A stretch of 63,873 nucleotides of DNA, filler included, from Craspedostauros australis (Eukaryota): assembly GCA_030167865.1 (NCBI GenBank). It is 10 parts of 10 records of this genome, joined end to end, with 100 filler letters (N's around TTAATTAATTAA, not from the genome) between each part and the next. Parts side by side here need not be neighbours in the genome. Positions count along the whole stretch, not along the records: positions 34,554 to 41,491 come from JALAGF010005363.1; 9 more parts are not named here. One strand, 5' to 3'. Of the stretch, positions 2,294-41,892 are shown in pieces. Made by a program: the position numbers and the translations under genes. Below the pieces are notes generated by a model, which was not told the DNA's origin, did not search any database, and worked only from the letters and a program-made list of their open reading frames with translations. Positions within the stretch are counted from its first letter, which is position 1. Every line of letters starts with the position of its first letter.

Positions 2294-3800
2294 TCATAGA
2301 GGTGAACTTAATTGCGGTTGAAGTGTTCGCTGATCCGGTGACTCTATAGTAGGGTCAGGTACCGGGGACTCATCGGTGGCTCCCTCTGTCGAAGACATTT
2401 GCCTGTTGACTCCCTCTGAAACTGGCATCGGAGGGGCGAGAGCTTCACTCATGAGATCGGGGATCTGTTGCGTCATTGGTTGCGACTCTTTCGCCAATAC
2501 CTGTGGCGCTCTTTCACGGATGGTTTGTTGGTTTCGCGTCTCAGTTATCGGTGGTGGAGTATTATCGTCGTTGCGTTGTAACCGGTTGTGGTCTCGCGTG
2601 TCTGATGCGAAGATGTCGTCCTGCTCCATTGATTCCACATCGTCGTCATCGAATGGATATTGNNNNNNNNNNNNNNNNAACATGCGAGTCCATTCTTCCG
2701 ATTGATAGCTTGGAAGTTGCTTCAAGTCGGTAGCAATCGTTGCGAACCAGTCATCGAACACAACATGGAACTGAGGGGTGATTGATCCTGTCCGTGGTGA
2801 TAGGACCAGAGGTACGGTCGAAGCATGCTTCGTAGAGAGACCCATGTTCACGTATCTCTCTCCTCTTGGTTCCCATCGGGGTATCTTGCGTCCATCGGCC
2901 AGTGCTTTGTTAAGGACATAGACTGGACTGCCCCATACGTGCAGGTTATGTAGTTGCTTGAGGGGTAGACGGATGCGTGACAGAACATCGTAAGGTGTGA
3001 GACCAGTGGCGGGGTTTGGCACGCGATTGTAGATGTACGCGGCATGCACTACGGCCATTGGCCACAGTTGAGCGTCAAACATTGTTGGCCAATGGATGCT
3101 TTGGTGCATCATCATGGTTCGAGCCATTGAGACAATTGTTCGAATGCTTCGTTCGGCGATTCCATTGTGGTGATGTGCGCCGACTCCTGCGAATCGATGG
3201 ACTTGATGGAATATTTCAAGGTGTTTGGAGTATTCGGGCGAGGTGAAGGTAGTTGCGTTATCCGATAGATAGGATCGCACGGGGGCTCCCACATCACGAC
3301 ACATCAGTTCGAACCGTTCCTTGGCTTCGAGGGTAGCGTGCGTGGTTAGCGCTGCTACTGGCTCCACATGAATGTATCCGGAGGCGTGATCGACGAAGAT
3401 GGCTCCGCCTTTGTACATTTCGTTTGGATCGCCTTTGCCTCGTCCTGAGAAGAGGCGTCCTGGCGTTCGACCGACGAAGTGGTCCACTGATACTTGTTGT
3501 CCTGGGAACAAGTGATCGGTGCGCAAAACCCTGTTTGTCACGAATGACATGTTGGGTTATTCCTGGTGAAGGACGATGGTGCAGTTTTCCAAATTGGCAT
3601 GCGGCGCAGAGCGGAAGACTCGTGACCTTTGCCGCAGCTGTGTGCATCTTTCTAGACGATTCTGACCCAGTGAGTGCACCCGAGCGCAGTAGGAACTTCA
3701 CTCGACTGAAGGATAAATGTCCGAGACGATAGTGCCACCGAAGAAGTTCCTTTTGCGGTTGGGTGAGGTTCACGTTGTGGTCCGATACGGTAGAGACGAT
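2294..3800 (-). pseudogene. Copia integrase (HHCC + DDE core)
   Basis: LLRWHYRLGHLSF...CAACQFGK, then a frameshift at ~3528 to PGQQVSVDHF, FVDHASG, SDNATTF, HHHNGIAER, ITPQFHVVFDDWF. Confidence 0.93.
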
Positions 3801-4306
3801 GGATGTTAGTGCAGCTGGTACATTATGGATGTTGTCGGCGCTGTAGCCGACGGATGTTGGCAGCCTTGTGGATTTCTTGTAGTTCGCTACGATTGCATTA
3901 CGATCGTCGCTTCCCAGGATTCCGCTGAGTTTGCAGGAGGACTTGTCGAANNNNNNNNNNNNNNNNNNNNNNNNNNNNNNNNNNNNNNNNNNNNNNNNNN
4001 NNNNNNNNNNNNNNNNNNNNNNNNNNNNNNNNNNNNNNNNNNNNNNNNNNNNNNNNNNNNNNNNNNNNNNNNNNNNNNNNNNNNNNGTTCCCAACGCATT
4101 CACTTGGATTTTCTTGAGGAATCCGTTGAGAAAGGTCGGTCTTGGTGGAGGACTTGGAGTAGAACAGAAATTGTTGAGGTCATTTGTCACAGAGATTGAC
4201 GCTCCGCTGTCCCATACAAGTTCGAATGGAGCATCGGGCGAGAGATAACTCTCAGCNNNNNNNNNNNNNNNNNNNNNNNNNNNNNNNNNNNNNNNNNNNN
4301 NNNNNN

Positions 4307-5131
4307 GATTGCATTACGATCGTCGCTTCCCAGGATTCCGCTGAGTTTGCAGGAGGACTTGTCGAACACGATCGTTTCTCCCTGATACTCTTCGAGAAGA
4401 CTGGAAGTGCTGATTAGCTTGACCTTCGATTCGGGAACATGGAAAGCAGGCAGTCGCAATTTGCGAGGGCTTCCAGTTACATCAAGGACATACCACTCGA
4501 CAGTTCCCAACGCATTCACTTGGATTTTCTTGAGGAATCCGTTGAGAAAGGTCGGTCTTGGTGGAGGACTTGGAGTAGAACAGAAATTGTTGAGGTCATT
4601 TGTCACAGAGATTGACGCTCCGCTGTCCCATACAAGTTCGAATGGAGCATCGGGCGAGAGATAACTCTCAGCTTTAGCTGGAGATGCGAAAGCATTGCGA
4701 TTGGAGAAGTAGGAGGCTAGACCTTGCAGGGTGAGTAGAGCGGGCATGTCATGGTCACACTGTTGCTTCTGGTTTCGGCCACATACCAAGTCGATTCCGA
4801 GAGTTGGGTACAGGCTCCAGAGATTTCGTGAGATGGATGTGGTGCGACCTTCCTGGCGGGGCAATTTTGCAGTCGTGAGTGTTTGGTTTTTACCATAAGT
4901 GGAATTTTTCGATTGGTTCCAGTGGCGACGTTTTGATCTGTGATTGCGAGTTTTGGTCCGAGCCTGGGGGCGCCACACACGTTTTGTTCGTGGGGAGTTT
5001 CCTTTCGACACGTTCACGGGTTTGGGTCCATCTGGGTCAAGGCTTTCCATTACGAGGTCGTAGAGACTGCGTTTCACGGCCCCATTGAAGTGTGTGGGAC
5101 GTTTGTGCACTTGCTTGAACCGTTCCTTGAC
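4307..5131 (-). pseudogene. Copia aspartic protease region
   Basis: FELVWDSGASISVT...PAFHVPESKVKLIS, in frame with gag across one TGA. 3890-4256 is a gap-flanked duplicate. Confidence 0.88.
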
Positions 5132-7060
5132 TCATGCCTTGTTATAGACTAGGTCAGTGGAGTTGATTGAGTTGGGTCTTTGTGGAACGTTCGTGTGGAG
5201 GAGTAGTAGAGTCACGGCGATAAGCATCCAGGCATTAGCTGCCGCGATGTACCACCCATACTCTACTCCGATAGTGATGACTTGGAGTGAGGCGAAGAGG
5301 AGAACCACTCCAATGATGCTACCGGAGTAGTTGAAGGAGGTGAAGAGGTTCCAGATGAGGGACCACCAGATGTCTTCGTCTTGACTGGAGGTGGCTGTGA
5401 AGCATGTCCATGCAGCCATGTCGATGGAGAGGTTGTCCTGCTTGGGAATGTTCTTGCCCTTTGCCTTCGCCTTGAACTTGAAGTTATCCTGGTGGCTCTC
5501 GGTGTTGTGCGAGAGACGCCAGCGGCGGCACTTGGCGCACCACATGAACGTCTTGTCGTTGACAAGCTTGCGCTGTGGTTCACCAGGCTTGGGGGCTTTG
5601 GACGACCAGCCCTGGCTGGCGTTGCGTTTGGCGTCGCGTTCCTTGGGCTTCCTGGAGTTGTTTCTCTTTCCGTCGTTCTTGGAGAAACCCTTGTGTTGCT
5701 CGAGAACGTTGGCGCTTGGATTCTGGACGGCGTTGTTGGCGTACGAGTACCTGGGCACGTTGCTGTCTTTGGTACGCCTGATGGCATGCCAGCGATTTCC
5801 GCGCACCTCGTTTTCGTACGACGACTCGGCCTTGTTGCAGATTGCCATCCATGTGAGATCTTTTGCGGCAAGCTGGGGGCGAGCGTGCTCGTATGTGAAG
5901 ACGGGGAAACGCATGAAGATTTCCTCAAGGTTATCCTTCATCACATAGAGAGGACGTCGGTACTGTTCACCAGACCGGATCTGTCCTCCCACCTGGAGGA
6001 AGGCATCGAGGATCGTTCGGAGGAGACGGAGGTCGAAGCGACCGGCGTCGTCGAGGCGCTTGCAAAGAGCACGAAGGTGGACTGCCATGAGACCAACGTT
6101 CTCGTTTGGAAAACGTCTGCAGTTGACTTCGGGGATCTTGGCTGCAAGGGCGTCTTGTTCATCCAAGGAGTTGACCGAGTTGCTGTTCATGAACTCGACG
6201 AAGAGAGTGATGAAGTTATCGTGGAACTTCAGCTCGATTCGGTTCATGAGCTGGTCTTCGAGGACTGGATCAAGACTGTCACGGAAGAACGCTGCGGCAG
6301 TCTCATTGTTCTGGACATCGTAGTGATCCCACTTCAGATGGTACTCGTTGAAGTGCTTGGTGGCATCTTCAAGAGTGAAGGCGGCTAGTGAGTCCAGGAC
6401 GCAGGTCATCTCTGACTCTGCATTGGCGTCAGCAATGTACGCCATGGTGAGGAGTCCGGTTCTGGCCATGTGATTTCGCACCAGGCGGATGAACTGTTGG
6501 ATGTTCCCTCCTTTCTTGAACTTGTCGGTGAGTCCTTGCTCTCGCTTGGACTGGTTGGTGGAGTCAGCACCGTTGTGGAGGATTCTCTGTTGTTGAGAGT
6601 TGGTCCACCTGGTCTGTGACTCGTCCTGGAGGCCAGTCCACTGCGCGTTTGATGCGCCTGCTGTCCAGGGTACCCAGTTGCGTCCTTGCTTGAGGATACC
6701 TCCCATGATGGGGACGGTTGGTTTCCCAGAGAGGTCATGGTTGTCGTCGTCGCTGTCCTCTTCTGACTTTCTGCTCTTCTTGGGCATGGGTGTTCCCATG
6801 TCGAAGAGGCTGTCATCGAGGAAGGACTGGTCCGTCCGGGTTCGTGTGGCGCCGACTGATCGGCTGCGCCCGAGACTGGAACGGCTTGGTGTCGTGGTGG
6901 CTGTTGCTGCTGCTTGGGCAGTGGCTACAGCCGCGTTCGCTGCTTCTGCAGCGACTTCGGCCGCCAACGTCGCCTGTGTGAGGCGGGCGTTCTCGACCGT
7001 GATCGCTTCGAGCTGCGCTTGCAGCTCTTCCAGCGTGGCAGGGGTTGTCTCTTCCGCCAT
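5132..7060 (-). CDS. Copia Gag (642 aa) with CoDi-type zinc knuckle and hydrophobic C-terminal segment
   Basis: N-terminal coiled coil, WCAKCRRWRLSHNTESH knuckle, located upstream of the protease. Confidence 0.88.
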   Translation of the reverse strand: MAEETTPATLEELQAQLEAITVENARLTQATLAAEVAAEAANAAVATAQAAATATTTPSRSSLGRSRSVGATRTRTDQSFLDDSLFDMGTPMPKKSRKSEEDSDDDNHDLSGKPTVPIMGGILKQGRNWVPWTAGASNAQWTGLQDESQTRWTNSQQQRILHNGADSTNQSKREQGLTDKFKKGGNIQQFIRLVRNHMARTGLLTMAYIADANAESEMTCVLDSLAAFTLEDATKHFNEYHLKWDHYDVQNNETAAAFFRDSLDPVLEDQLMNRIELKFHDNFITLFVEFMNSNSVNSLDEQDALAAKIPEVNCRRFPNENVGLMAVHLRALCKRLDDAGRFDLRLLRTILDAFLQVGGQIRSGEQYRRPLYVMKDNLEEIFMRFPVFTYEHARPQLAAKDLTWMAICNKAESSYENEVRGNRWHAIRRTKDSNVPRYSYANNAVQNPSANVLEQHKGFSKNDGKRNNSRKPKERDAKRNASQGWSSKAPKPGEPQRKLVNDKTFMWCAKCRRWRLSHNTESHQDNFKFKAKAKGKNIPKQDNLSIDMAAWTCFTATSSQDEDIWWSLIWNLFTSFNYSGSIIGVVLLFASLQVITIGVEYGWYIAAANAWMLIAVTLLLLHTNVPQRPNSINSTDLVYNKA

Positions 7061-7590
7061 GATGGATGACGGGGACTTCTCGAGTGGTCTTCGGACTTTG
7101 AGGGGATCGATCTGTTTGCCTTCTCTTGCTCTTGCTCGACTTCACTTCGTTGGGAAGGTGTGCACTGAAGTTCGATGCAGGCTTGGGGAGGTTCGCGCTC
7201 GGTCAGCGAGTGCGGTTGTAGCTTGCTTTGGCAGAGGCTACTGAAGTTCGACCTTGGGTCGCTTACCTTCAGCTGGGACTTTTGTCCTCTTGAGTGGCTC
7301 GGTTTTCGAGCGTTGGGGATCTGATTTCAGATCAGATGCATGCAATGAGGACGTGGTCCTTTGATGGAGGCTCGGTCTGCGAGCTATGCCTTTTGGCTTC
7401 GTCTCTGAGAGACTCTTGCGATGGTTGGCAGAGGAAGATGCTCGGTGGAGTTGATAAGAGAGTATTTGGCAACCACTCGCAGCTACCAGTTAGGATTCGA
7501 GCGTAGACGGCGCGAATCGGTGGAGGATGTCTCTTGGATCTGCCAGCTTCGGGATAGCCGTGTGATGCAGATCAAGAGAGGTGTACTGAT

Positions 7591-18949: not shown

Positions 18950-19800
18950 CCGGCACTGGGGGGATTCCACGCGCACCAAGGGCGGCACTTTATTACGCAT
19001 CGCTGCCCTGAACGTGGGATGCCTACAGACCTGCTCGAACCACTGGAAGAACGATGGTCTCTGGCAATGGGTCAAACGACTACGAATCGACATTGCACTC
19101 CTATCAGAAATAGGCATCAACTGGTCGAAGATCGGTCGCATGAACTCATGGAAGACGAGATCCAAGAAACATGTGCACATGGAACGACACTCCTTGTCGT
19201 ACAATGAAAGAGAGAAGATGGGAGGACCAAGACAATGGGGAGGAACCGCATGCACGATGACAGGGAATGTCACAGGCAGATACAAAAGTAGGGACAACGA
19301 CCCGGAGAAGATGGGACGATGGGCAAGCATGGCGGTGAGAGGAAGACAAGACACAACGATTCGGTTCGTCAGCATCTACATTCCCAACAAGGGAGGTCAA
19401 AGTGCCGGGACAGTCTACAGTCTACAGTCTACAATCAACAAGCATCATGGCTGGAGTCACAAGGCAACAACACATCACCCATTGCACAGTTGATTCAAGA
19501 TTTGGAAGCGTCCATGCAACAGTGGAGGGATGCCAGAGAGACTGTGATAGTCGGAGGTGACATCAACATGCCAGTGGAGCGATCCCAAATGGCAGATATG
19601 ATGGCTCGCCAGCGAATGAAGGAGGAAGCCATCCTCAGCCACCACCCCCGCAGCTCCAGGGCTCTCAACCAATATACGAGCCAACTCGAATAGAGTCATT
19701 GATGGCATGTGGGTTCCAGAGTCGCTTCAAGTGGTGCGGTCAGGATACAGCCAATTCGGACCTTGGGATCATCGGACGGCATGGATTGAGATTACGCAAG
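18950..19800 (+). pseudogene. LINE apurinic-like endonuclease (APE)
   Basis: WGD...RIAALNVG, DIALLSEIG.NW, GGTA, MGRW, RFVSIYIP, IVGGDIN, IDGMW, WDHR. Frameshifts at ~19420 (gtctaca x3) and ~19670. Confidence 0.9.
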
Positions 19801-22800
19801 AGTCAGTGTTTGGAACAGTCAGCAAGCCCACCCAAAAATTCGAAGGGCAACAGGTCCATCTCAACCGACCAGTGACAGTTCGACGATACCAAGCTGAAGT
19901 CCTGAAGCAATACAAACGCAAGAACGTGATTCAGAGGGTAGGCCAGCTGCGAACAGAGGTGGGAACGTCAAAAACACTCACGCAGGACCAGATCGAGGCA
20001 ATGGAAGCCATCGACGCAGACAGAGCACGGATCATGCTGACAGCGGAAAAAGGGGCCCGGAAAATATACACAGGCAAGGTTCCATTCTCTCCAATGATAA
20101 AGCAGAAAGCCATGGAGAAACAGTTCTGGAACCTGGCATGGAAACGTCGGGAAGGTAAAAAGGTGAGCTCCAGATGGTATGACCGAGCGAAGAAGCAAGC
20201 TGGAATAACGACCCGCACCGCCACCCTCAGCAGGGAGGACTTGGATGAGAAGCGGCGAAGAGCACATAAGAAATGGAAGCTCGCCAAGAAAGATGCACAG
20301 AAGCACTGTGCAACATTCCTACAGTCTCGGGCAGAAGAAGTGGCCAGAGCAGGCAACACCACCGCCAAAGCAGAAGCAGCTCTCACATCCATCCAAAAGC
20401 GAGAAGAAGTGATGGAGACGTTCAAGGCTATCCGGCAAGTAATCGGGGACTACGATGCGAACAGCAAAGTCACAATGGTCATTGCGAACAACGAGGACGG
20501 GGAAGAAGAAGTGTATGACAGAGAACAGACGGTCATCACTCAATGCATCAAAGCTAACGAGGCCAAATACAGACAAGCCTACGTGACCCCCCTGCAACAC
20601 GCAGCTTTTGCGAGAGATGTGCGAAGGATGAGTCTGTCAGCCACCCGGCGAAGGCATGAACGCAAACTTGGCAGCTACGACCACCAGTTGCTCGACGAGC
20701 TCGGCAAGACGGACGCCGTACCATGGAAAGAGGAGGATCTCCGTATCACCACGGCCAGCCATCAACAGCTGTGGTCCAAGGCACGCGAAAAGACTACGTC
20801 TGGGCCATCAGGGCTGCATTTCGGTCTCTGGAAAGCGAATGCTAAATGCGACGACCTTGCCAAGGTTGATGCGACCATGAGAGAGATATCGCTTCGAACG
20901 GGTTACAACCTGTCCAGATGGCTGGTATGCACTGACGTAACGCTTCTAAAGGAGCCAGGAAACTTCCGAGTTTCCAGATTCCGCACCATCAGCCTCGTGG
21001 AAGGCGACTTTAACGCGAACCTCAAGTGGATTGGCAAAATCATGATGAAGCACGCAGAGGATCATCGAATGCTGCCGGACGAGCAATACGGGAGCAGGAA
21101 ACAGCGCAGTGCGGCAGAAGTCAGCCTCAACAACAGAATGACAGACGACGTTATCAGAATCACAGAGGCTACCAGCTGCATATGCTCAAACAACGCAAAA
21201 AGCTGCTACGACCGGATGGCGCACGTCCCACTGGAGCTCAGTATGCAACGAATCGGAGTGCCCAAAACGGTGGGGAGAAGCGTGACGACCGCTATCCAAG
21301 CGATGAAGCACCACGTGCTGACGGGTTTCGGGAAATCTACGCGCACATACCCCCATCGAGGCTCTAAGCTGCAGGGTCTTCTCCAAGGTCTTGGCATATC
21401 GCCTGCAGGATGGGTTGCAATGAGCTCGCCAATTGTGGCTGCAATGTCTGAGAAAGGGTACGGGTTCACATCGATCAGTCCAACCAAGCAAGTAACAACC
21501 AAGCTGGTGTGCTTCTCGTTCGTGGACGACACGGACCTTATCCACTCCGTCAGGACGGATGCAAGTGACAAGGAAGGATGTGTTGAAGAAATCCAGCAAG
21601 TGGTCGACGCGTGGGAAGGCATGCTACGAGCTACGGGCGGAGCACTGGAGCCAAGGAAAAGCTACTGGTACTTGATGTCGTTCAAGTGGGAAGGTACCCG
21701 GTGGAGATACAAGACTATAGAGGAGCAGCCAGGGAACATCAGCATCCGCCAACCGGATAGCCAGGAACGGTCCACGCTGCTCCGGCTTCGGGTGGATCAA
21801 GCAAGGAAAGCCCTGGGTGTCATAGTGCGCCACGATGGAAACCAGAAAGACAACGAGTTGTACTACACGAACAAAGCTGAGAAATGGGCAGCCAAAATGC
21901 GAAGAGGGCGAATGCTGAGGACCCACGCGTGGATTGCGATGAAGTCTACAATATGGAAAACTCTGGAATATCCGTTGGCCAGCTCGACATTCACAAAGGC
22001 GGCGACCAAGAGAATCATGCGTCCCGTCCTAGCGGCAGCACTGCCAGCAGCTGGGATACAGCGAAACGTATCCAGGAAGTTGGTGTTCGGGCTGCACGAA
22101 GGGATGGGGCTTGGAGTGCACCATCTCTACTACGTACAAGTCACAAGGCACCTCGAGCAGCTGGCACGTCACTGGCAACGGCCAACCCTGACAGGGAAAT
22201 TGATGCGCACGCAGGTCGAACTCCTGACGCTGCAAGTTGGTGTCCCAGACGTATTCTGCCGCGACCCGGCGAAGTGGAGTTATCTGGCTGAAGATTCGTG
22301 GATGAAGTCGGTGTGGATAGAGACGCGCGAGGTGGGCATCACAGTGCGGTGGGAGAACGGGATACTGCACGCCCCTCGACAACACGACGCGCCAATCATG
22401 GAGCGCGTCCAAGCCTTCGCATTCGATCCGCAGCAGCAGCGAGTCATCAACCTGTGCAGAATAGCCAAGAAAGTGCTCTGGCTATCGGATATCGTCTCTG
22501 CCGACGGGGCACAACTTCTCTCGTCAGCGCTGAGTCCAGGGGATACTCCTTTGCGGTCCACATGCCTCCGTTGGCCACCAGTTGGTGAGCTTGGGCCGAC
22601 GAGTTGGCGACTGTGGAGCCAAGCCATTCGACGAATATTTCAACCCACAAGAACAGGTACAGCGCGTCTGGCGCAACCTCTCGGGCGTTGGAAGGGGTTT
22701 ACGTCGCAGCAGCCACTCGTCTTCTGGGATCCTGACAGCGACAGACTTCACGACTTGCAGCAGCCACGTCAAGGCTACATCAGAGTGCCGCGAAGAGGAC

Positions 22801-22919
22801 GACGAAAACTATACGAACGGGTCCAAGGAAATATGCGTCGGCCTTTGGGAATCGTGGACGGGTACCGAGAACGGGGCCGAATCGTTGTCACAGGGACGGG
22901 CGATGGCAGCATCGCATAG
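19707..22919 (+). CDS. LINE reverse transcriptase region
   Basis: SGPSGLHFG, LLKEPG...FRTISLVEGDFN, EQYGSR, AKSCYDR, LQGLGISP, FVDDTDL, TGGALEPRKSYWY, KALGV. Confidence 0.93.
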   Translation: MWVPESLQVVRSGYSQFGPWDHRTAWIEITQESVFGTVSKPTQKFEGQQVHLNRPVTVRRYQAEVLKQYKRKNVIQRVGQLRTEVGTSKTLTQDQIEAMEAIDADRARIMLTAEKGARKIYTGKVPFSPMIKQKAMEKQFWNLAWKRREGKKVSSRWYDRAKKQAGITTRTATLSREDLDEKRRRAHKKWKLAKKDAQKHCATFLQSRAEEVARAGNTTAKAEAALTSIQKREEVMETFKAIRQVIGDYDANSKVTMVIANNEDGEEEVYDREQTVITQCIKANEAKYRQAYVTPLQHAAFARDVRRMSLSATRRRHERKLGSYDHQLLDELGKTDAVPWKEEDLRITTASHQQLWSKAREKTTSGPSGLHFGLWKANAKCDDLAKVDATMREISLRTGYNLSRWLVCTDVTLLKEPGNFRVSRFRTISLVEGDFNANLKWIGKIMMKHAEDHRMLPDEQYGSRKQRSAAEVSLNNRMTDDVIRITEATSCICSNNAKSCYDRMAHVPLELSMQRIGVPKTVGRSVTTAIQAMKHHVLTGFGKSTRTYPHRGSKLQGLLQGLGISPAGWVAMSSPIVAAMSEKGYGFTSISPTKQVTTKLVCFSFVDDTDLIHSVRTDASDKEGCVEEIQQVVDAWEGMLRATGGALEPRKSYWYLMSFKWEGTRWRYKTIEEQPGNISIRQPDSQERSTLLRLRVDQARKALGVIVRHDGNQKDNELYYTNKAEKWAAKMRRGRMLRTHAWIAMKSTIWKTLEYPLASSTFTKAATKRIMRPVLAAALPAAGIQRNVSRKLVFGLHEGMGLGVHHLYYVQVTRHLEQLARHWQRPTLTGKLMRTQVELLTLQVGVPDVFCRDPAKWSYLAEDSWMKSVWIETREVGITVRWENGILHAPRQHDAPIMERVQAFAFDPQQQRVINLCRIAKKVLWLSDIVSADGAQLLSSALSPGDTPLRSTCLRWPPVGELGPTSWRLWSQAIRRIFQPTRTGTARLAQPLGRWKGFTSQQPLVFWDPDSDRLHDLQQPRQGYIRVPRRGRRKLYERVQGNMRRPLGIVDGYRERGRIVVTGTGDGSIA

Positions 22920-22937
22920 CCTGAAAGCGCCAGCACA

Positions 22938-24521
22938 GTGGAAGCAGCAATGCTAGCTTTGCCACACTCGAAGGCGTGGGCAGTGCGGCAGTACAAGAAA
23001 ACGGGAACCTGGGAAACAGCGTCCCAGTCTATGCAACAGGGGTCAGCGGTGGCCTGCAGTGACGGGTCGGTTGCACAAGGAGTGGGAGCGTCTGGAGCGG
23101 TTATACTCGCCAGCCACGGCAGCGATACCACGCAGGTGTTGGTCGCCAATCTCGCGCCAGCCACCGACGGCACTATGCAATCGCATCGGGCGGAGCTCGC
23201 CGGGATCTACGGGGTCCTAACAATGCTCGCGGTGAGTTGTGAGGTGTATGGAGTCGAGAGCGGCAGCGTGGAGATGGGGTGCGACAATGTCGGAGCTCTC
23301 AAAGCGCTGGACCCTGAGTGGCGGCTGTCTCCCTCGTCCACCGACGCAGATCTGTTACGAGCAGTCAGGAACCTCAGCATGGATATACCGGTTACAATTC
23401 AAGGGCAGCACGTCAAAGGCCACCAGGATGACCAGGTGGGATGGGGTTCGCTCGATAAATGGGCACGAATGAATGTGATTGCCGACAAAATTGCAGGATC
23501 CACACGAGTTTCCATGCAGGAGGCGGCGGCATACAGTGGGCAAGTGCATGGCGAAAGAGTGACGTTCAATGCATCGGCTAAGCTGACGAAAGTGGTCTAT
23601 TCTGCGGTGGCGGATGCCCAAGCGAGCCGAGAAGCGATTGACGTCCTGATCTCGCGCAGGGTGCTCCACCTTAGCCAACCGGTCGCCTGGCATACTTTCG
23701 GCAGCGCTCTCACAGTTCTCGAACTTTCCAAGCGCACGTTGACAATCAAACTGGTTTCAGGGGAAGCTCCATTTGGCAAACGAATGAAACAATGGGGGAT
23801 GAGGATCTCTGATAAATGCCCCAGCTGCAGTACGAGCGAGGATGTCCAACACTTCTGGGAATGTCCTGGACATGACCGTCGGCGGATCTCAAAGAAGCAT
23901 CTAGCGGAGATTCGAAGATGGCTGCAGAAGTACCCGACGCGGCCAGCGATGATAGCCAGCATGATGACCATTCTCCGGAGTCAGCTTGAGGGCTTGGCGT
24001 ACCTACAGATCACCAGCCCTGGTGGCCAGCTCCACGAGGCTGTTCAACAGCAGCAAGCCGTGGGGCCCCAAGCTCTGTGGAAAGGGCTGCTGGTCTAGCA
24101 CTGGGAACATATGCAGCAGGAGTACCTGGAACAGCAGAACTCCTGCAGGTCCGCGGCGAAGTGGTCCCGGCAGCTAGTACAGCGCATCTCGCAGATAGCG
24201 TGGGAGCATTGGGCGGCGAGAAACGAAGCACTTTTCGAGAATCAAGACTCGGCCGAGGCTGAAATGGTCCAAGCCCTGCGGGACAGGGCACACTCACTTC
24301 AGCTTCGCCTCGAGATGAATCAAGCGGATCACCGGCGAATACTTCTCAGCGCCCCCACTGAAGGGACGCCAGCGGCACAAGTCGCGGTATGGGTGGAACA
24401 GGCTGCGCTAAAGCTACATGAACCGGTCGCCACTGACGCCCTGTTCAAGTGGCTGCGGTTCAGACGGCAAGTTCACCCAGCCCCCGGCAACAGAGCAGGC
24501 GAATCAGCAGCGGGCGAGTAA
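22938..24521 (+). pseudogene. LINE RNase H + CCHC zinc finger, in frame with RT across TAG stops at 22917 and 24096
   Basis: ACSDGS, SHRAELAGI, GCDN, HVKGHQD, NVIAD, CPSCSTSEDVQHFWEC. Confidence 0.9.
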
Positions 24522-32125: not shown

Positions 32126-34453
32126 GGTCGTAATTGCATACTTAAGGGTCCCTCCGTCCAATTTTGGTGATTCATATGACAGTGAATATTCAGCGCCACT
32201 GAATATCGTGTTCTGGCTAGAAGTGCATAGGAATGGTCAATGCGCGAGCAAACCAACNATGGTGGGCCATGGTATGGTCCCCGATGGGTACGTTCCGAGT
32301 GGTTATAGGTCGCCATTACGTATTTAGGGGTCACTCCGTCCAATTTCGTGATTCATATGACAGTGAATATTCAGCACCACGGAATATCGTGTTCTGGCTA
32401 GAAGTGCATAGGAATGACCAATGCGCGAGCAAACCAACGATGGTGGGCCATGGTATGGTCCCCAATGGGTGCGTTCCAAGTGGTTATAGGTCGTCATTAC
32501 GTATTTATAGGATCCTCCGGTCATATTTGGTGATACACTCGAAGTTGAATATTCAGCACCACTGAATATCGTGTTCTGGTTAGATGTACATAGGAATGGT
32601 CAATGCGCGAGCAAACCAACAACGGGGGACGATGGTATGGTCCTCAATGGGTGCGTTCCAAGTGGTTATAGGTCGTNNNNNNNNNNNNNNNNNNNNNNNN
32701 NNNNNNNNNNNNNNNNNNNNNNNNNNATGGTGGGCCATGGTATGGTCCCCGATGGGTACGTTCCGAGTGGTTATAGGTCGCCATTACGTATTTAGGGGTC
32801 ACTCCGTCCAATTTCGTGATTCATATGACAGTGAATATTCAGCACCACGGAATATCGTGTTCTGGCTAGAAGTGCATAGGAATGACCAATGCGCGAGCAA
32901 ACCAACGATGGTGGGCCATGGTATGGTCCCCAATGGGTGCGTTCCAAGTGGTTATAGGTCGTAATTACGTATTTATAGGATCCTCCGGTCATATTTGGTG
33001 ATTCATATGACAGTGAATATTCAGCGCCACTGAATATCGTGTTCTGGACAGATGTGCATTGGAATGGTCAATGCGCGAGCAAACCAACAACGGGGGACGA
33101 TGGTATGGTCCTCAATGGGTGCGTTCCAAGTGGTTATAGGTCGTCATTACGTATTTATAGGATCCTCCGGTCATGTTTGGTGATACACTCGAAGTTCAAT
33201 ATTCAGCACCACTGAATATCGTGTTCTGGCTAGATGTACATACAAATGATCAATGCGCGAGCAAACCAACAATGGTGGGCCATGGTATGGTCCCCGGTGG
33301 GTGCGTTCCAAGTGGTTATAGGCCGTCATTGCATATTTAGGGGTCCTGAGGTCCAATTTGGTGATACATATGACAGTGAATATTCAGCACCACTGAATAT
33401 CGTGTTCTGGACAGATGTACATAGGAATGATCAATGCGCGAGCAAACCAACGATGGTGGGCCATGGTATGGTCCCCAATGGGTGCGTTCCGAGTGGTTAT
33501 AGACCGTAATTGCATATTTAGGAGTCACTCCGTCCAATTTCGTGATTCATATGAAGTTGAATATTCAGCACCACTGAATATCATGTTCTGGACAGATGTA
33601 CATACAAATGATCAATGCGCGGGCAAACCAACAACGGGGGACGATGGTATGGTCCCCGGTGGGTGCGTTACAAGTGGTTATAGGCCGTCATTGCATATTT
33701 AGGGGTCCTGAGGTCCAATTTGGTGATTCATATGACAGTGAATATTCAGCAGCACTGAATATCGTGTTCTGGATAGATGTACATAGGAATGGTCAATGCG
33801 CGAGCAAACCAACGATGGGGGACGATGGTATGGTCCCCAATGGGTGCGTTCCAAGTGGTTATAGGCCGCCATTACGTATTTAGAGGTCCCTCCGTCCAAT
33901 TTTGGTGATTCATATGAAGTTGAATATTCAGCACCACTGAATATCATGTTCTGGACAGATGTACACAGGAATGGTCAATGCGCGAGCAAACCAACGATGG
34001 TGGGCCATAGTATGGTCCCCAATGGGTGCGTTCCGAGTGGTTATAGGCCGTAATTGCATATTTAGGGGTCCTGAGGCCCAATTTCGTGATTCATATGACA
34101 GTGAATATTCAGCACCACTGAATATCGTGTTCTGGACAGATGTACGTAGGAATGGTCAATGCGCGAGCAAACCAACGATGGTGGGCCATGGTATGGTCCC
34201 CAATGGGTGCGTTCCGAGTGGTTATAGGTCGTCATTACGTATTTATAGGATCCTCCGGTCATGTTTGGTGATACACTCGAAGTTGAATATTCAGCACCAC
34301 TGAATATCGTGTTCTGGACAGATGTACGTAGGAATGGTCAATGCGCGAGCAAACCAACGATGGTGGGCCATGGTATGGTCCCCAATGAGTGCGTTCCAAG
34401 TGGTTATAGGTCATTATTACGTATTTATAGGATCCTCCGGTCCAATTTCGTGA
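32126..34453. repeat. 181/182-bp tandem satellite, at least 12 monomers, running off the scaffold end
   Basis: Anchor (g/c)aatattcag at 32184, 32365, 32547, 32833, 33015, 33197, 33378, 33559, 33740, 33922, 34103, 34285. Confidence 0.97.
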
Positions 34454-34553
34454 NNNNNNNNNNNNNNNNNNNNNNNNNNNNNNNNNNNNNNNNNNNNTTA
34501 ATTAATTAANNNNNNNNNNNNNNNNNNNNNNNNNNNNNNNNNNNNNNNNNNNN

Positions 34554-36700
34554 ACCATTTCGGGATGGTCGGCGCGGATCACGTCATATCGGAACCATTG
34601 CGTTTCAGTATTGGACCATTGCACGTTGAAGTGTAGATGTCCGTCTCTGAATGCGTGGCTGAGGATGGAGTTGATTGCCAAGTCGTCAGATTTCTCGTTT
34701 TCGACCTGATTTCGGAACAGCTCGTCATGCTCTCTCTCNATGAGAGAGGACTCACGCCCCTGAGAGCGGTGCTCCGGAGGATCTGGCATCGCCGTGACTT
34801 CGGAGTCATCGGTCTCCTCAGAGATGTTACCCGTGGATGCGTCGCCGTCATCATCCGAGATGACGCCGTGTGCATTACGTTCCGGCATGTCGCCGTCGTT
34901 GGGAATCATATTTGGTTGACCGAACCATCGGTCAGCCGTGCCTGCTGGCGTGTTGTTAGCGGATACGCCCCTGACCTCCTGCGTCGCCGGCTCCGGTGGA
35001 CCTGCCGCCGCCCCTGACTGCACAGCAATCGCGTCGATGGCCTCACGGACCTGTCGAGCGAGTTCCGCCGGCATAGTCTTGGCCCTGGCGCGCTCGCCGG
35101 ACTCGCCGCGCGTAGTGGTGTGGATGATATCCAATTGAGCGATGCGTTGGATCTCCGCGTCTGTGATGCGTGGAGGAACGGCGTCTTCGACGACACGCGG
35201 CTTGACGATGTTGCGCACAAGCGCGGTGCCTTTCGTGACGTCGTCGCCTCGTGGCGACCATATATTGTAGGTGAATGGATCGCCGTGGTTCCATGCGATG
35301 CCAAGGAAGTACCCTGGCTTGAATGGGTGGTTTGGGAATTTGGTCATGGGTTCGAAGAACCATACGGGTTGGAAGAATGTGAAGCGGAACATCGAGATGT
35401 CGGGAGTGTTGCCGCGAATGATCTCGATCGGTGTACGCCATTGGAGGCTCGCTTTCGCCGTGTAATTCCATGCGTCGATCGCGTGCTGCACAGCGTAGCA
35501 CCAGAATGAGAGTGGCACCGAGGCCGCCCACAGAAGCTGGTATGCATGCCGCTTGACATCGCCGATCGCCCGTTCTGCGTGATTCTGATTCTGATTCATG
35601 GGCACAGTGAATTGATGCTTGATCAGATAGCGGGATGTGACCGCTTTCCATGCCTTGCCCGACTGCACCTGCGAATTGTCTGATACGAGCAGATCCGGAG
35701 CGCCGACGCGGATGATGAAATCCGTGAGCGCCCCTGGCGCCATGGCCTCGCGGCTCAGTGGCTTCGCCCAGATGAATTTCGATTGGTTGTGCGAGAATAG
35801 CTGGAAACACTTGTAGTGCCTGATGGACTGGACGGTAGAGAAGAACGTGTCCGTGTCAACCCTGCCGTCGATCCTGTTGGGTTGCAGCACTCCTGCTCGC
35901 TGCGCTCGATACTGCCGCGGGATAAGTCTTGACTCTGCCTCGATCGGAGTATCCGCCAGCTGAGTGGATGCCGCCATTGTCTTCTCCACCACGTGTGGTG
36001 GAAGGTGTCGGAAGATTCGCTTGAAATCGACCCGACCCGCAGTGCGTCGTAGACGCTGATGTCTGTCGCATATGATGATATGCTGTGCCGTCGCCATCTC
36101 GTGGGATGTCGGCTTTCTGATGGGAATTCGGAGCGTGTTGCCTGCATGGTTCTCCAGTGGTATGCTGATGTCGTCCGATGAGACCCGCTGCTGTCCCTGA
36201 TGTTCAATTAGGCGATCGTAGACGTTCAGTCCAGACGCGCGCATATGATGTGTGTTAAACAGTGATTCCGTCTGCTGTGGATGCTTGTCGAGAGCCACGT
36301 AGTTCGCTTTGATGAGGATCACGCCGCCTGATGGGGGCTCGTATGCTGCCACCGCGTCNNNNNNNNNNNNNNNNNNNNNNNNNNNNNNNNNNGTCGCCCC
36401 TCGGGCACGAAACTCTTGTTGGTGTGTGTGGGTCACCTCCCAGCCCGACGCATGAACGATGTCTCCGTCCGCCCCTGAGTCTAGGATGATAAAGCCTTGG
36501 CTATTGGTCGTTACTCTTGCCCTTCGGATGCAATGCTCCACTGGTGGGTGGGTTGTACATGGACGAGACTCTTGTGGTGCCACCGGACGTGCACGTCCAG
36601 GCATTCCCGCTGCGGTCGTCACGCTCGCCCCCCTACAGTCGCGGGGTTTGAGGTGGATGACAATCTCCGACTGACGGCGAGTTGTGCCCGTCTTTGATTG
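34554..36700 (-). CDS. Pol: protease, integrase, chromodomain-like segment
   Basis: IILDSGAD, VDTDTFFS, VSDNSQVQ, QNHAERAIG, TPDISMFRFTFFQPVWF, INSILSHAFRDGHLHFNVQWSNTETQW. Confidence 0.88.
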
Positions 36701-38098
36701 TCAAGAACCGGCGTTCCATGGTCCTTGGGTGCCAGGTCGTCCGGTCTTGTAATCGCCCGTGCGAGGTCTCTTGGGTCCTTGCTGGGTCATTGGCAACTCC
36801 ATGTTGCGCGCGTACTCTGTTGGCTTGTTGCGCTTGAGGGTTTCCTCATCAATGGGTTTCCCGGTGGTGCGGAAGTGACGAGACGCCTCGACGAGGAGCA
36901 CTTGAGTGCTCACCGGCATGCGACGGAAGACGGAGTCCGGCAACCGAAACGATGCGGCGCCCTTGCGATCCCACTTGGAGGACTCGCGTGGCCTCTTGCG
37001 GTCGTCCTTGGTGTCCTTCTGCTGGTAGCGACGGTTGCGCTTGGGAGAGTAGTGTCCTTCCGACTTCGTGAGTAGCGCATCATGTTGCATGAATGCCTCG
37101 CGGATTGCATTGAAGGATTGTTCCGTGTTGCGGAATCTGGACATCTCGCTCGTGAAGCGATCGTCGGTGATGTTGCGAAAGAACTTCGCAATCTTCTGCT
37201 GGTCGGTCATCTGCTTTCCGTTCTGCTCCATGACACGGATGCATTTGGAGAAGTCATTGACAAAGACTGGGAAGGGCTCTGATCCGTCGTAACGGAGCTC
37301 AGCGATCTTCTGTTCTTCCTCAACGATGGCCTCAGCTTTGTGGTCGACGGACTCGTAGTTGCGTACGAGCGCCTGGTATGCGTCATGGCCGCTCGGGTCA
37401 TGCGCCTCCACGATGAATGCCGCGCATCCCTTCTCTGTCTTGGTGTGCAGGACAGTGTAGAGCTGCGCGTCGATGTCCTCTGCGTAGTGTGATGGCTTGT
37501 CGACATCGAGGTACGCGGCGTATCTGGATGTGACCAGTTGCCGCTTGAATGCGATCTTCCAGTCATACCAGTCGCTGTTGTTCCCGGTGAACTCGGGTGC
37601 CTCTGGCATGCTGATCTTGTCGAACTTCCATCCTGATGGAGTCCTTGGGGTTCGTGGAGATCGCGGGGTGCGTCTCGCGCGGCTCGGTGAGCTGACGGTG
37701 ATTTCGCGACCCGCGGTTCCCGTGGCTTCCGCTGCTGCGGCTGCCTCCCTGATCGCCATCTCCGATCGCACTTGAGCAGCTGCATTTGCGACTGGCGTGC
37801 TGACTGCCGGTGGCTCGTAGCTGTTCGCTTCGTTGAACAAGTCGATTGCTGCCCAATCGGTGCGTGCGGTGATGGTGTTGGCTCGCGCGTACGCGAAGAT
37901 GCGCAGGATGTTTGTGATGTTGATTGATGACAGCGTTGGCGAGAGCGCCAAAGCTGCCACGATGGTGGCGTCCGGATTGCGGATGACACGATCGATTCTC
38001 CCGAGTTTCTCGCCGATGAACGCCATCTCCTCGTCATCGAGCTGTACCAGCTCTTGGATGATCTTGTTGAAGGTGTTGATGTTGGTTGGTCGGTCCAT
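36701..38098 (-). CDS. Gag (465 aa)
   Basis: APEFTGNNSDWYDWKIAF, SGHDAYQALVRNYE, LRYDGSEPFPVFVNDF are typical copia gag motifs. Confidence 0.88.
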   Translation of the reverse strand: MDRPTNINTFNKIIQELVQLDDEEMAFIGEKLGRIDRVIRNPDATIVAALALSPTLSSINITNILRIFAYARANTITARTDWAAIDLFNEANSYEPPAVSTPVANAAAQVRSEMAIREAAAAAEATGTAGREITVSSPSRARRTPRSPRTPRTPSGWKFDKISMPEAPEFTGNNSDWYDWKIAFKRQLVTSRYAAYLDVDKPSHYAEDIDAQLYTVLHTKTEKGCAAFIVEAHDPSGHDAYQALVRNYESVDHKAEAIVEEEQKIAELRYDGSEPFPVFVNDFSKCIRVMEQNGKQMTDQQKIAKFFRNITDDRFTSEMSRFRNTEQSFNAIREAFMQHDALLTKSEGHYSPKRNRRYQQKDTKDDRKRPRESSKWDRKGAASFRLPDSVFRRMPVSTQVLLVEASRHFRTTGKPIDEETLKRNKPTEYARNMELPMTQQGPKRPRTGDYKTGRPGTQGPWNAGS

Positions 38099-38159
38099 GG
38101 TGGTAACTCGTAAGATGGTGAAAGGTGGTGTGGTGTTGGGTGTTGCTTAGTATTGGTAA

Positions 38160-38174
38160 GCACGACTCTTAATC
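38160..38174 (-). promoter_or_regulatory. Putative primer-binding site complementary to the anticodon arm of tRNA-Lys(CUU)
   Basis: + strand GCACGACTCTTAATC abuts the LTR TG. CACGA-CT-CTT-AA-TC is an anticodon stem/loop pattern. Confidence 0.65.
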
Positions 38175-38344
38175 TGTCAAACAGTGCAAGTAACTACGAA
38201 AGATGTATTGGCCCGTTGTTTCGTGCCCTGGTCGGAGCTCTTGTTGTTTATTTGTGAGTGCTGTCCGAAGACAGCCCCCGACCAGTATTTGACTAATAGG
38301 ATTAGTAGAAGAGTAAGAAGTAAAGAATTCTGTGAGAATTGTCA
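38175..38344 (-). repeat. Putative 170-bp 5' LTR
   Basis: Minus strand TGACAATT...TTTGACA, AT-rich, lying between the PBS and host coding sequence. Confidence 0.65.
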
Positions 38345-40571
38345 CTCTCCATCGTGGGATCATCCTTGATCATCTACATGGCCAGACGCGACCTATCCTT
38401 GGTCTACCATCGCATCCTCATCGTGATCTCCATCGCGGACATCATCGCTGGTGCATTCAATGCAGTCCATCTCTTCCTCGTCCCGTCCGACCGCACGGAC
38501 AGCCCCATCGCATTCGGAAACGACACGACGTGCACCATGCTCGGTTTCNNNNNNNNNNNNNNNNNNNNNNNNNNNNNNNNNNNNNNNNNNNNNNNNNNCC
38601 TCGTCCCGTCCGACCGCACGGACAGCCCCATCGCATTCGGAAACGACACGACGTGCACCATGCTCGGTTTCGCCCTCAACAGTGCCCCCATGATCATCAC
38701 GCCGTACAACACCTTCCTGGCCGTCAACTTCCTGCTGCAGATACGGTACCGATGGACGAATCGACAAATTGCAATGCAGATCGAGCCATACGTCTTCCTC
38801 CTCACGATTCTCATGGCCGTCTGCATTCCCAGCGTCGGGCTCCTCCAGAATTCATTCGCATTGAACTACCTCAGTGGGTATTGCATCTTTGGCACGTATT
38901 CGGAAACGTGTACTACGGAAGAAGTAGTGGTATTGCTTCAGGATGACATGCACAATGCTACGACTACGACAACAACGATACGGCACTGCACACCTGACGC
39001 GCTGAGTCTCGATTTGCTCAGCATCATCGTTTCGTTCCTCGTCGGTATCATCGCGACTCTGGGTATCGCCAGCACGTACGCGCTGTACAGCTCGGTCTAT
39101 TCAACATACACAGCCAATGCGCGGTATGCGACGGATAATGAGCCGGTTGTCAGCGAATCCATGGCAATGACGGTCGCAGACAGTGCGGAAGAGATTGCTG
39201 CACGGCGAAAGAGGAAACGAAGGCGATCGTCCATCACATCGAAGCTGCAAGAGGAACGATTCAAGCAGATCACGCAGCAGTGCATCCTGTACGGATTGTG
39301 AGTTTGGTCAGTGGGAAGGGAGCGGGTCACTCCTGCCATGGTTGTGCTTCGTACGGGCATGGAGCACTTGCGCGTGCAGCGTATCCTCTACAATGCTCTC
39401 TCTTTGATTTGATTTGATTTGATTAGATGTATTCATGTTGGTTCTGTCCTTGGCGATCCATTTTGAGTCTCCATTCAGTGCATCGTGCTTCCGCTCATCT
39501 CTCTCCCTCCTTTGCCCCCCAACTCTACCAACACAACTTAACCGATAAACGCTTGCCCCTATGCAGAGCCTTCGGAAACACATCCATCTGGCCGATGGCA
39601 TTCACGATCGTCGACCTCACAATGGAGACGCAAGACAAGTTGGGTTCGCCGGGGATCTTCCTGCTGGTCTTCCTCACATGCGTCTTCATGCCGTTGCAGG
39701 GCGCATTCAATTTCATTGTTTTCATTTGGCCCAAGTACCAACGCGTGCACAAGCTGCTTCGGAAACCCATGGGATCGCATGACATGATGATGCACTCTGT
39801 CGAATCGAATGGCGACTCCATTGTGGGAAGCAGCGAGATGCCGCATGCAACCTCGTTGGCGAAACAGAGCACACGCAGCACTGGCGAGATGCATGGCAAC
39901 ACCGGTGTCGCAGAGAAAAAGGGCGACAGCATGAGGTGGTTCAGGATCATCCTCATGATCATCCAAGATGAGGATGNNNNNNNNNNNNNNNNNNNNNNNN
40001 NNNNNNNNNNNNNNNNNNNNNNNNNNTGGGATCGCATGACATGATGATGCACTCTGTCGAATCGAATGGCGACTCCATTGTGGGAAGCAGCGAGATGCAG
40101 CATGCAACCTTGTTGGCGAAACAGAGTACAAGCAGCACAGGCGAGATGCATGGCAACGCCGGTGTCGCAGAGAAAAAGGGCGACAGCATGAGGTGGTTCA
40201 GGATCATCCTCATGATCATCCAAGATGAGGATGCAGCATCAGCGAGATTTTCCAGCAGAGCGTCGGACTTGCGCATGCGATCGAATCGTCGTGCATCCGA
40301 GGAATTATCATCGTACTTCAGCAGGTTTCGTGAGGGTAGTGTGGATGNGATTGATCAGGACAGTAAATCACCGCAGCATGTTGCCGTACAAGATGAAATG
40401 AATGAGTCCACCATGCAGCAGGCCTGCAAGGATCCATCTCTTTTGGCAGAAGCGCAAGAGGACGAGGTTGTGGGTGAAAACAGCAATACCAGCGAAAGCA
40501 ATGAAGAAACCAATGCTGAGAGTCAGCAGAGACAGACTGTACCTGGAAAGCCACAGTCGATGACCTTCTGA
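38345..40571 (+). pseudogene. Diatom 7TM GPCR-like receptor, 5' end interrupted by the LTR element; intron 39298-39566
   Basis: LSIVGSSLII, YHRILIVISIADI, FGNDTTCTMLGF, QCILYGL|AFGNTSIWP (GT..AG splice restores frame), PLQGAFNFIVFIWPKY. Confidence 0.82.
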
Positions 40572-41892
40572 TCGATCATACAGGCGATGTCAAACGAATT
40601 TGAGACAAGATTTCAGTTTTTGCACGTTGACTTGGAGCGCTGTGAGGGATTGGCTGGTTGGGATTTGCATCTGCTGTTCTTGGTTGCGGACGGGTGCACA
40701 TCGGCCGCCAACAGGACAGCTTCTTGCGTCGGCGAATCGCTGCAGCACTCGTTGGCCATGCACTGACGCAACATGGTCTTGATGATCGTTGGAGCACCGG
40801 ATGAACAGCAGATCCTATGCTGCCGAGACAACCAAAGTCAACAGAACGTGGGTGTGACATGTGTGAAAGAACAAGGAATGAGAACCATCCTTCGTTGACA
40901 ACACACTAGTCACAGTCAAGCTAGAAGTATGCTAACAACTCGGAATCCAAACACGGAAATGGCCAACACGAAGATCCATCACAAACATGCACATCTCTAA
41001 CAGAACACAACACAACACAAACAGTGGCAACATCGACATCAACATCAACAGATCCGCACACCACAAACCATTTACATTGATTCTATTTTCACCTGTCACC
41101 AAGTCCAAACCATTCCTACTGGCATCGTAATACCCCAAACACGATCAACCACGGACGACAGGCAGACGATTGAAGTGCGCCAACAATTCTTGACATCACC
41201 GAAAACAACGAACTGTTGATGTTGATGTCACACAGAACAACTACTCAACGACTATGGCAATACATGTCCTCGTTCTGTGTAAGACCCCATTCAGGATACG
41301 ATAGTATACAAATGCGGATTTTTTATTTTATTACCTATATCATCCTATTATATTGTAGAGAGTATATGTGTGAAGTTACAAGCTCCTGGGCCCTGTAGTT
41401 AAAAAGTTTATATTTTTCGCACTAATCTACAACTAAAAACGTTGCGCATGCGGACGTGAAGGGGCAAATGGGGTTCGGAATCGCCAGTCGTNNNNNNNNN
41501 NNNNNNNNNNNNNNNNNNNNNNNNNNNNNNNNNNNTTAATTAATTAANNNNNNNNNNNNNNNNNNNNNNNNNNNNNNNNNNNNNNNNNNNNATGGCCAAC
41601 TCTGCGAATGAGGACGACACAAACCGCATCACGCCAACGTGCACACATCCATTACACCAGACACTGCTGCTCTCTCGCAGATGCACTTCAATGGAGCCTT
41701 GAGTTGAGCAGAGGTGCCCTTTGTCACACAAATCAGAAACACAACCAACCACNNNNNNNNNNNNNNNNNNNNNNNNNNNNNNNNNNNNNNNNNNNNNNNN
41801 NNNNNNNNNNNNNNNNNNNNNNNNNNNNNNNNNNNNNNNNNNNNNNNNNNNNNNNNNNNNNNNNNNNNNNNNNNNNNNNNNNNNNNNNNNNN

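What the first reader, a model, noticed from the sequence alone, without database searches (positions are those of the whole stretch)
36690..36710. gag-pol joined by a leaky-stop signature TGA-CAA-TCA
Seen: gag ends ...AAC GCC GGT TCT TGA CAA TCA AAG..., and pol continues in the same frame with no further stop to the scaffold end. Known: stop-CAR-YYA is the tobamovirus-type read-through context, and read-through is rare in Ty1/copia elements (reported for Candida Tca2 gag-pol and at the SIRE1 pol-env junction). Inference: this diatom copia lineage makes Pol by programmed read-through. The GC-rich sequence downstream may add a stimulator.
Basis: partly seen in the sequence, partly recalled or inferred. 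Interest (0 to 1): 0.72.

Follow-up and report, generated by a model that had tools for sequence, protein, structure and literature searches.

The report
Leaky stop in diatom copia retrotransposon
A family of diatom jumping genes keeps one UGA stop, followed by a plant-virus-type leaky context and folded into an RNA hairpin, between its coat gene and its enzyme genes, so the enzymes are most likely made when ribosomes occasionally read through the stop, a trick known from other retroelements.

Summary
Confirmed. A Ty1/copia element on the minus strand has a 465-codon gag ending in TGA (36703-36701), then CAA TCA, with pol in the same frame. The stop is programmed, not decay: 43 of 43 junctions found in five subfamilies of this genome (gag 46-49% identical) carry a stop (42 TGA, 1 TAA) and 41 carry CAAYCA. 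A look-alike TGA in the window's other copia is a one-copy CGA mutation. Read-through is inferred, not shown; no RNA covered the site. New detail: the stop and CAAYC can pair with nt +36..+43; positions +4 and +37 change together (U-A 29, C-G 14 of 43). Purely 3' folds are not unusually stable, so the proposed GC-rich stimulator is unsupported. The clade sits among mostly single-ORF relatives; one marine relative has TGA-CAA at the same place, and 15 more distant marine loci have an in-frame TGA elsewhere with other contexts, so UGA-split gag-pol is common in this group, not rare. The scan noted diatom copia gag-TGA-pol before on other genomes (five notes). I found no paper describing it in diatoms.

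The parts
38175..38344 (-). 5' LTR, 170 nt, TG...CA
   Evidence: Matches both ends of full-length family copies, with 5-bp target-site duplications in L035 and L039; LTR pairs 96-99% identical in 3 copies of this subfamily
38160..38174 (-). Primer-binding site, 15 nt complementary to nt 26-40 (anticodon arm) of host tRNA-Lys(CUU); implies priming by a tRNA half (inferred)
36704..38098 (-). gag, 465 codons
   Evidence: Open frame; no Pfam hit of its own; profile finds the N-terminal parts of single-ORF copia polyproteins
36701..36703 (-). In-frame TGA between gag and pol
   Evidence: Stop in 43 of 43 junctions, 42 TGA and 1 TAA
36695..36700 (-). CAA TCA, fits the CARYYA read-through hexamer
   Evidence: CAAYCA in 41 of 43; +2, +3, +5, +6 invariant
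36673..36692 (-). Tentative inner hairpin, +9..+13 with +24..+28, starting 8 nt after the stop
   Evidence: 93-97% paired in subfamilies S1, S2, S4, but no two-sided change and a slid register scores about as well; weak
36658..36665 (-). 3' strand (+36..+43) of a helix that pairs with the stop and CAAYC
   Evidence: 8 of 8 pairs in this copy; +4/+37 covary in 43 of 43; only 2 of 810 variable columns share that split
34554..36700 (-). pol, 5' part: 73-codon linker, protease (DSG at 36481), integrase core (about 35860-35280), chromo-like stretch (about 34640); cut by the scaffold end; N gap 36359-36392
   Evidence: integrase fold for the L048 copy; weak rve and Chromo hits in the closest outside relative P0001

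Best explanation
Programmed stop-codon read-through sets the Gag to Gag-Pol ratio. Shown: one stop, fixed in place and in frame, with a conserved CAAYCA behind it. Inferred: the LTR transcript is translated from the gag AUG; most ribosomes stop at UGA and release Gag; the CAAYCA context weakens termination so that a minority insert a near-cognate residue (Trp, Cys or Arg; recalled, untested) and go on to make a Gag-Pol of about 1,800 residues that the protease cleaves. A hairpin whose base pairs the stop and CAAYC with +36..+43 is under selection; the ribosome must melt it to reach the stop, so it most likely tunes read-through (pausing, or leaving the inner hairpin at the mRNA entrance) rather than acting as a classical 3' stimulator. 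That last role is a guess.
For: Stop in 43 of 43 junctions across five subfamilies with gag 46-49% identical, found with probes that leave out the stop and hexamer. Control: the TGA in the window's other copia is CGA or CAA in the 23 other hits. The hexamer is held at nucleotide level: 0 synonymous changes in 20 codon comparisons at +1/+2 against 30-48% elsewhere, while codon +2 flips Ser/Pro within YCA; +1, +2 and +6 stay fixed even where they are unpaired. The 73 codons from stop to protease active site keep length and frame in S1, S2, S4, S5 at 54-72% nucleotide identity among S1, S2, S4, pN/pS 0.50-0.65. They contain a strand motif that aligns with single-ORF relatives. The first in-frame AUG is not conserved (codon 33, 34, 64, or 113, the last beyond the active site at 74). 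CARYYA stimulates read-through of UGA about as well as UAG (PMC4132726, passages; PMC3542737, passages). An outside marine relative has TGA-CAA at the aligned place, also inside a helix (L108).
Against: No RNA, ribosome or protein evidence. In Tca2 the junction sequence alone gave no read-through in yeast and held a minor promoter (PMC2194720, abstract). pN/pS in codons +3..+32 is only 0.70-0.82. Only 22 of 43 copies reach the protease in frame (14 broken, 7 gaps), and 2 copies have AAACCA. Some bases 5' of the stop are as invariant as the hexamer (-7 G in 43 of 43). Part of the hexamer's conservation may come from pairing rather than from termination context. L108 has GTC, not YYA, at +4..+6. 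The stop-enclosing fold beats shuffles only in S1 and S4 of six representatives. The five subfamilies share one genome and one ancestor.
Confidence: 0.8

Rival explanations
1. Pol is made from a separate mRNA (internal promoter near the junction) or by re-initiation or internal initiation after the gag stop.
For: Tca2 has a minor junction promoter (PMC2194720, abstract). The closest outside relative appears as two predicted proteins (P0040, P0001).
Against: No conserved in-frame AUG before the protease; in two S4 copies the first lies past the active site. It does not explain frame continuity with gag or CAAYCA. A free Pol would also need its own route into the particle (general retroelement knowledge).
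Confidence: 0.07
2. Splicing removes the stop: a phase-2 GT at gag codon -38 and a phase-2 YAG at +198..+200 would give a 315-nt intron and an in-frame Gag-Pol.
For: That GT is shared by four subfamily representatives, and YAG is present in 40 of 43 copies (3 not scored). Drosophila copia regulates by splicing (PMC2194720, Background).
Against: Both sites lie in conserved codons; 17 of 37 invariant two-fold residues of gag also share one codon in all four, so this is not exceptional, and 3 of 16 scored S1 copies lack the GT. No pyrimidine tract. An intron would not need to keep frame, length or a protein motif.
Confidence: 0.06
3. The UGA is recoded by a dedicated route: selenocysteine insertion, or A-to-I editing of the stop inside the helix.
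For: The stop is TGA in 42 of 43 copies here and in all 15 distant loci with a long open gag, although natural CARYYA cases generally use UAG. The stop lies in a helix, with an A-C mismatch at its third base in S2 and some S5 copies.
Against: No SECIS match in Rfam for 3 copies scanned. UGA is simply the leakiest stop (passage in 10.1101/2022.12.06.519325). The stop's A is paired to U in S1 and S3 and faces G in S4. mRNA A-to-I editors are not known to me from diatoms (recalled).
Confidence: 0.05
4. The stop is an inherited defect of a non-autonomous lineage copied in trans; pol is not expressed.
For: Many copies are broken; all scorable S3 copies are out of frame before the protease.
Against: pol downstream is under purifying selection between subfamilies (protease pN/pS 0.21-0.23), a copy with 1361 open codons exists, and no copy with a sense codon was found.
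Confidence: 0.02

Closest known systems
Tca2 of Candida albicans (Ty1/copia, gag-UGA-pol; PMC2194720, abstract and Background read)
   Same: Same superfamily, gag and pol in one frame split by one UGA, structured RNA nearby
   Different: Tca2 has a purine-rich 8-nt spacer and a predicted pseudoknot, and its flanks did not direct read-through in yeast; here the context is CARYYA and the supported helix includes the stop
Type I (tobamovirus, benyvirus, pomovirus) read-through, UAG-CAR-YYA (PMC3542737 and PMC3159437, passages)
   Same: Hexamer CAAYCA fits CARYYA; benyviruses add a compact stem-loop after a 9-nt spacer, like the tentative inner hairpin
   Different: UGA rather than UAG; a retrotransposon of a diatom; the hexamer itself is one strand of a covarying helix
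SIRE1 of soybean (Ty1/copia, stop suppression between pol and env-like; PMC2829016 passage; original paper not held)
   Same: Copia element that uses stop suppression; its CARYYA-like context is recalled, not read here
   Different: pol-env junction, not gag-pol; plant host
Fission-yeast Tj1, Tcry1, Tosmo1-3 (10.1101/2022.12.06.519325, passages)
   Same: Conserved in-frame TGA between gag and pol, with relatives (Tf1, Tf2) that have a single ORF
   Different: Ty3/gypsy; context GAA-TGA-CT
CoDi elements of Phaeodactylum and Thalassiosira (PMC2806351, passages and one Methods section)
   Same: Diatom Ty1/copia, 5-8 kb, short TG...CA LTRs, described as having one or no stop codon/frameshift between gag and pol
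   Different: The passages read do not name read-through or a stop context; the CoDi group of this element was not assigned; the supplement was not available

Membership tests
Ty1/copia LTR retrotransposon | pol order protease, integrase, RT, RNase H | tested here: met
   DSG motif, then integrase fold (Foldseek to retroviral integrase cores, E 1e-7), then RVT_2, in copy L048; RNase H judged by eye from the C-terminal motif
Ty1/copia LTR retrotransposon | copia-type RT (RVT_2) | tested here: met
   PF07727 E 2.3e-18, above cut-off, in L048; the window copy is cut before the RT
Ty1/copia LTR retrotransposon | LTRs with TG...CA, target-site duplication, tRNA primer site | tested here: met
CoDi (diatom copia) groups | RT phylogeny with named CoDi elements | not testable with these tools
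   No reference CoDi sequences were available; host judged a diatom from silicon transporters
Type I CARYYA read-through site | stop followed by CAR-YYA, conserved | tested here: met
   41 of 43
Type I CARYYA read-through site | UAG as the usual natural stop | tested here: not met
   TGA in 42 of 43; the motif works with UGA in reporters
Programmed stop-codon read-through | downstream ORF in frame and under coding constraint from the stop onward | tested here: met
   73 codons without indels between intact subfamilies, pN/pS 0.50-0.65, weaker (0.70-0.82) in the first 30 codons
Programmed stop-codon read-through | fusion protein made by ribosomes crossing the stop | not testable with these tools
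   needs a reporter, ribosome profiling or mass spectrometry
Type II/III read-through (3' stem-loop or pseudoknot about 8 nt after the stop) | conserved stable structure wholly 3' of the stop | tested here: inconclusive
   5-bp inner stem in S1, S2, S4 without two-sided change; z-scores -1.4 to +0.8
Selenocysteine recoding | SECIS element | tested here: not met
   No SECIS match in L035, L039, L048 at E up to 1; divergent forms could be missed

The most novel reading that the evidence does not exclude
This clade gained its own read-through site from a single-ORF ancestor, separately from other UGA-split diatom copia lineages, and uses an undescribed signal: the stop and its CARYYA context are buried in a hairpin that acts as a switch setting, and perhaps regulating, the Gag to Pol ratio.
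Probability: 0.25. Interest if true: 0.75.

Novelty: new variant of a known kind. Interest (0 to 1): 0.5.

Why it matters
Stop-codon read-through has no described case in diatoms in the searches run here. A conserved natural signal gives a ready test of how leaky UGA is in a major group of phytoplankton and a possible tool for fixed-ratio expression. Annotation would call such elements broken when they are not. A helix that covers the stop and covaries inside the CARYYA hexamer is unlike the 3' stimulators in the reviews read, and a clade with stop-bearing and single-ORF neighbours lets one ask how retroelements switch between ways of setting Gag to Pol.

Tried and rejected
Clade-specific scans of metagenome and viral contigs found no relatives. 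A gag-alignment search of the 90% protein set was blank. No RNA holder was listed; the one run offered (X1) laid only on the LTR region, which says nothing on expression. PDB sequence search with the pol alignment was blank; Pfam gave nothing for the window's gag or partial pol. The DNA between P0040 and P0001 could not be fetched, so its junction type is open. The 161-nt fold of the junction was not unusual (z +0.43). The alignment fold over all 32 rows gave almost no consensus structure. The first helix table used wrong offsets and was redone. A further pairing of +28..+33 with +60..+65 holds in S1-S3 only, without covariation: dropped. A general stop-enclosing hairpin in distant TGA lineages was not supported (8 of 15 above 0.5 against 33% of control TGAs). 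A +1 frameshift at UCN-UGA was rejected because pol is in frame 0. One-copy decay was rejected. The careful integrase tree did not finish; the quick tree is reported.

Full report
Observation. The window is a chain of scaffolds joined by N linkers; the element lies on the scaffold 34554-41491, which is G000:C5363. On the minus strand an ATG at 38098 opens 465 codons that end GGT TCT TGA (36703-36701) CAA TCA AAG, and the frame stays open to the scaffold end. A 34-N gap lies in this frame; copies without a gap there keep the same frame. Stop-CARYYA occurs 6 times in any frame in the window, so one site proves nothing by itself.

What the element is. A 170-nt LTR (38344-38175, TG...CA) is followed at once by 15 nt complementary to nt 26-40 of a host tRNA-Lys(CUU). 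Priming by a tRNA half is known from Drosophila copia and Tca2 (recalled). Full-length copies of this subfamily span about 5.9 kb in two cases (7.3 kb in a third), with LTR pairs 96-99% alike and 5-bp target duplications in two of them. Copy L048 has 1361 open codons after the stop with RVT_2, and its protease-integrase part folds like retroviral integrase cores, so the order is that of Ty1/copia. The genome holds 92 silicon-transporter matches, which fits a diatom.

Is the stop programmed? DNA and protein searches of the genome gave 43 and 124 matches, of which 30 each were fetched, plus 20 longer stretches. In these 80 overlapping loci, probes that leave out the stop and hexamer found 43 junction places in five subfamilies, S1-S5 (18, 5, 10, 3, 7; two same-contig pairs in S3 may be assembly duplicates). 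All 43 have a stop (42 TGA, 1 TAA); 41 have CAAYCA and 2 S5 copies AAACCA. Gag is only 46-49% identical between S1 and S2, S4, S5. As a control, the in-frame TGA of the window's other copia (5134-5132) is CGA in 21 and CAA in 2 of the 23 other hits, some of them repeats of one place. Across 10 subfamily pairs, codons +1 and +2 show 14 identical, 6 non-synonymous and 0 synonymous differences, against a synonymous share of 0.30-0.48 elsewhere; codon +2 flips between TCA and CCA. That is constraint on nucleotides, not on residues. Against over-reading it: -7 and -4 are about as invariant.

Is the stretch after the stop translated? The protease DSG lies at codon 74 in every intact copy: 22 of 43 reach it in frame, 14 are broken, 7 have gaps; none of the 7 scorable S3 copies is in frame. 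Between S1, S2 and S4 the 71 codons +3..+73 have no indel at 54-72% nucleotide identity, with pN/pS 0.50-0.65 (0.70-0.82 in +3..+32, 0.42-0.55 in +33..+73, 0.21-0.23 in the protease; one representative each). A strand motif about 12 codons after the stop aligns with the same motif in 7 single-ORF relatives (low-complexity alignment, judged by eye). The first in-frame AUG is at codon 33, 64, 64, 34, 113 and 113 in six copies, so AUG re-initiation cannot serve them all. A possible 315-nt intron is formally in frame, but its ends are no more conserved than other codons and 3 of 16 scored S1 copies lack the GT.

RNA structure. What has support is a helix pairing the stop and CAAYC with +36..+43. 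It has 8 of 8 pairs in S1. Over 30 distinct rows, U(-2)-A43 holds in 30, G(-1)-C42 in 29, A3-U38 in 30, C5-G36 in 27, but the three middle pairs in only 13-18. Positions +4 and +37 are U-A in 29 and C-G in 14 of 43 copies, never mismatched. In a 950-nt alignment of 39 of the 43 copies (4 dropped for gaps) these are the only 2 of 810 variable columns with that split, and the tree needs two or three independent double changes, one inside S2. In register the helix is 80% paired, against 13-35% in seven slid registers and 64% in one. The fold from the stop beats shuffles in S1 (2 of 200) and S4 (4 of 200) but not in S2, S3 or S5. Both covarying changes are non-synonymous, so co-evolution of two residues is not excluded. 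Since +1, +2 and +6 stay fixed where unpaired, hexamer and helix look like two separate constraints. A decoding ribosome must open this helix (established geometry), so it cannot be a classical 3' stimulator; a 5-bp inner stem from +9 could be, but its support is weak.

Relatives elsewhere. Seven of the 14 (P0002-P0008, 33-44%) run from Gag through the protease in one frame. A metagenome scan gave 65 loci; the protease start could be placed in 37. Of these, 7 are open across the region; 1 (L108) has TGA-CAA-GTC at the aligned place, inside a predicted helix; 15 have a TGA 20-52 codons before the protease after at least 176 open codons, none with CARYYA, several near-identical to each other; 3 more have such a TGA after shorter open stretches; 11 are decayed or uninformative. 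Their hosts are unknown. In a quick integrase tree (67 rows, 20 dropped as short or broken, labels set by hand) S1-S5 and P0001 form one clade (100) inside a 36-row clade (98) whose other scorable members are single-ORF except L108, which sits in an open fork with it; the other TGA lineages lie outside. A separate gain of the stop is the simplest reading; it was not tested with a rooted one-clade test.

Mechanism. Most likely (0.8) ribosomes read through the UGA at a low rate set by CAAYCA, giving Gag in excess over Gag-Pol. The layout and conservation are shown; read-through, its rate, the inserted residue and the role of the hairpin are inferred. No RNA data reached the junction.

Literature. 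Read: PMC2194720 (abstract, Background), PMC2806351 (passages, one Methods section; supplement unavailable), 10.1101/2022.12.06.519325, PMC3542737, PMC4132726, PMC3159437, PMC2829016 and PMC5009743 (passages). Gao et al. 2003 and Havecker and Voytas 2003 are not held and are recalled only; either, or the CoDi supplement, could already note such junctions. Searches for diatom or retrotransposon read-through and CARYYA (listings only) showed no paper describing gag-pol read-through in a diatom element or a CARYYA gag-pol junction; the library lacks most subscription papers. Five earlier notes of this scan report gag-TGA-pol in diatom copia on other genomes with other contexts; none matched this lineage by sequence.

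Verdict. A real, conserved feature and a new variant of a known kind: read-through at a copia gag-pol junction is known (Tca2), as is CARYYA, but the pairing of UGA-CARYYA with a covarying helix over the stop, in a diatom clade among single-ORF relatives, was not found in print. Interest 0.5.

Noticed in passing
window 222-7141, minus strand: A second, unrelated copia element with a hydrophobic, membrane-like stretch between Gag and protease; its in-frame TGA at 5134-5132 is a one-copy change from CGA.
   Followed up: partly
L110, L115, L117-L119, L121, L123, L126, L127, L137, L148, L153, L155, L156, L159: Distant marine copia loci end gag with an in-frame TGA 20-52 codons before the protease; many are followed by A (AAT, AAC, ACC), not a usual leaky context, and none uses TAG or TAA.
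   Followed up: partly
window 38160-38174: Primer site matches the anticodon arm of tRNA-Lys(CUU), pointing to priming by a tRNA half.
   Followed up: yes
window 19620-24098, plus strand: Long LINE-like frames (weak zf-RVT hit) split by one TGA at 22917-22919; family copies not checked.
   Followed up: no
window 32126-34526: Tandem array with a period of about 181 nt.
   Followed up: no
window about 34560-34650: Chromodomain-like stretch after the integrase of a copia element (weak Chromo hit in relative P0001).
   Followed up: no
G000, whole genome: 92 matches to the silicon transporter family, many fragmentary; a large number even allowing for alleles and split exons.
   Followed up: no
P0007, P0029, P0032: In one relative's cluster, two members end at residue 465 just before the protease while others run through; their DNA could not be read.
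   Followed up: no
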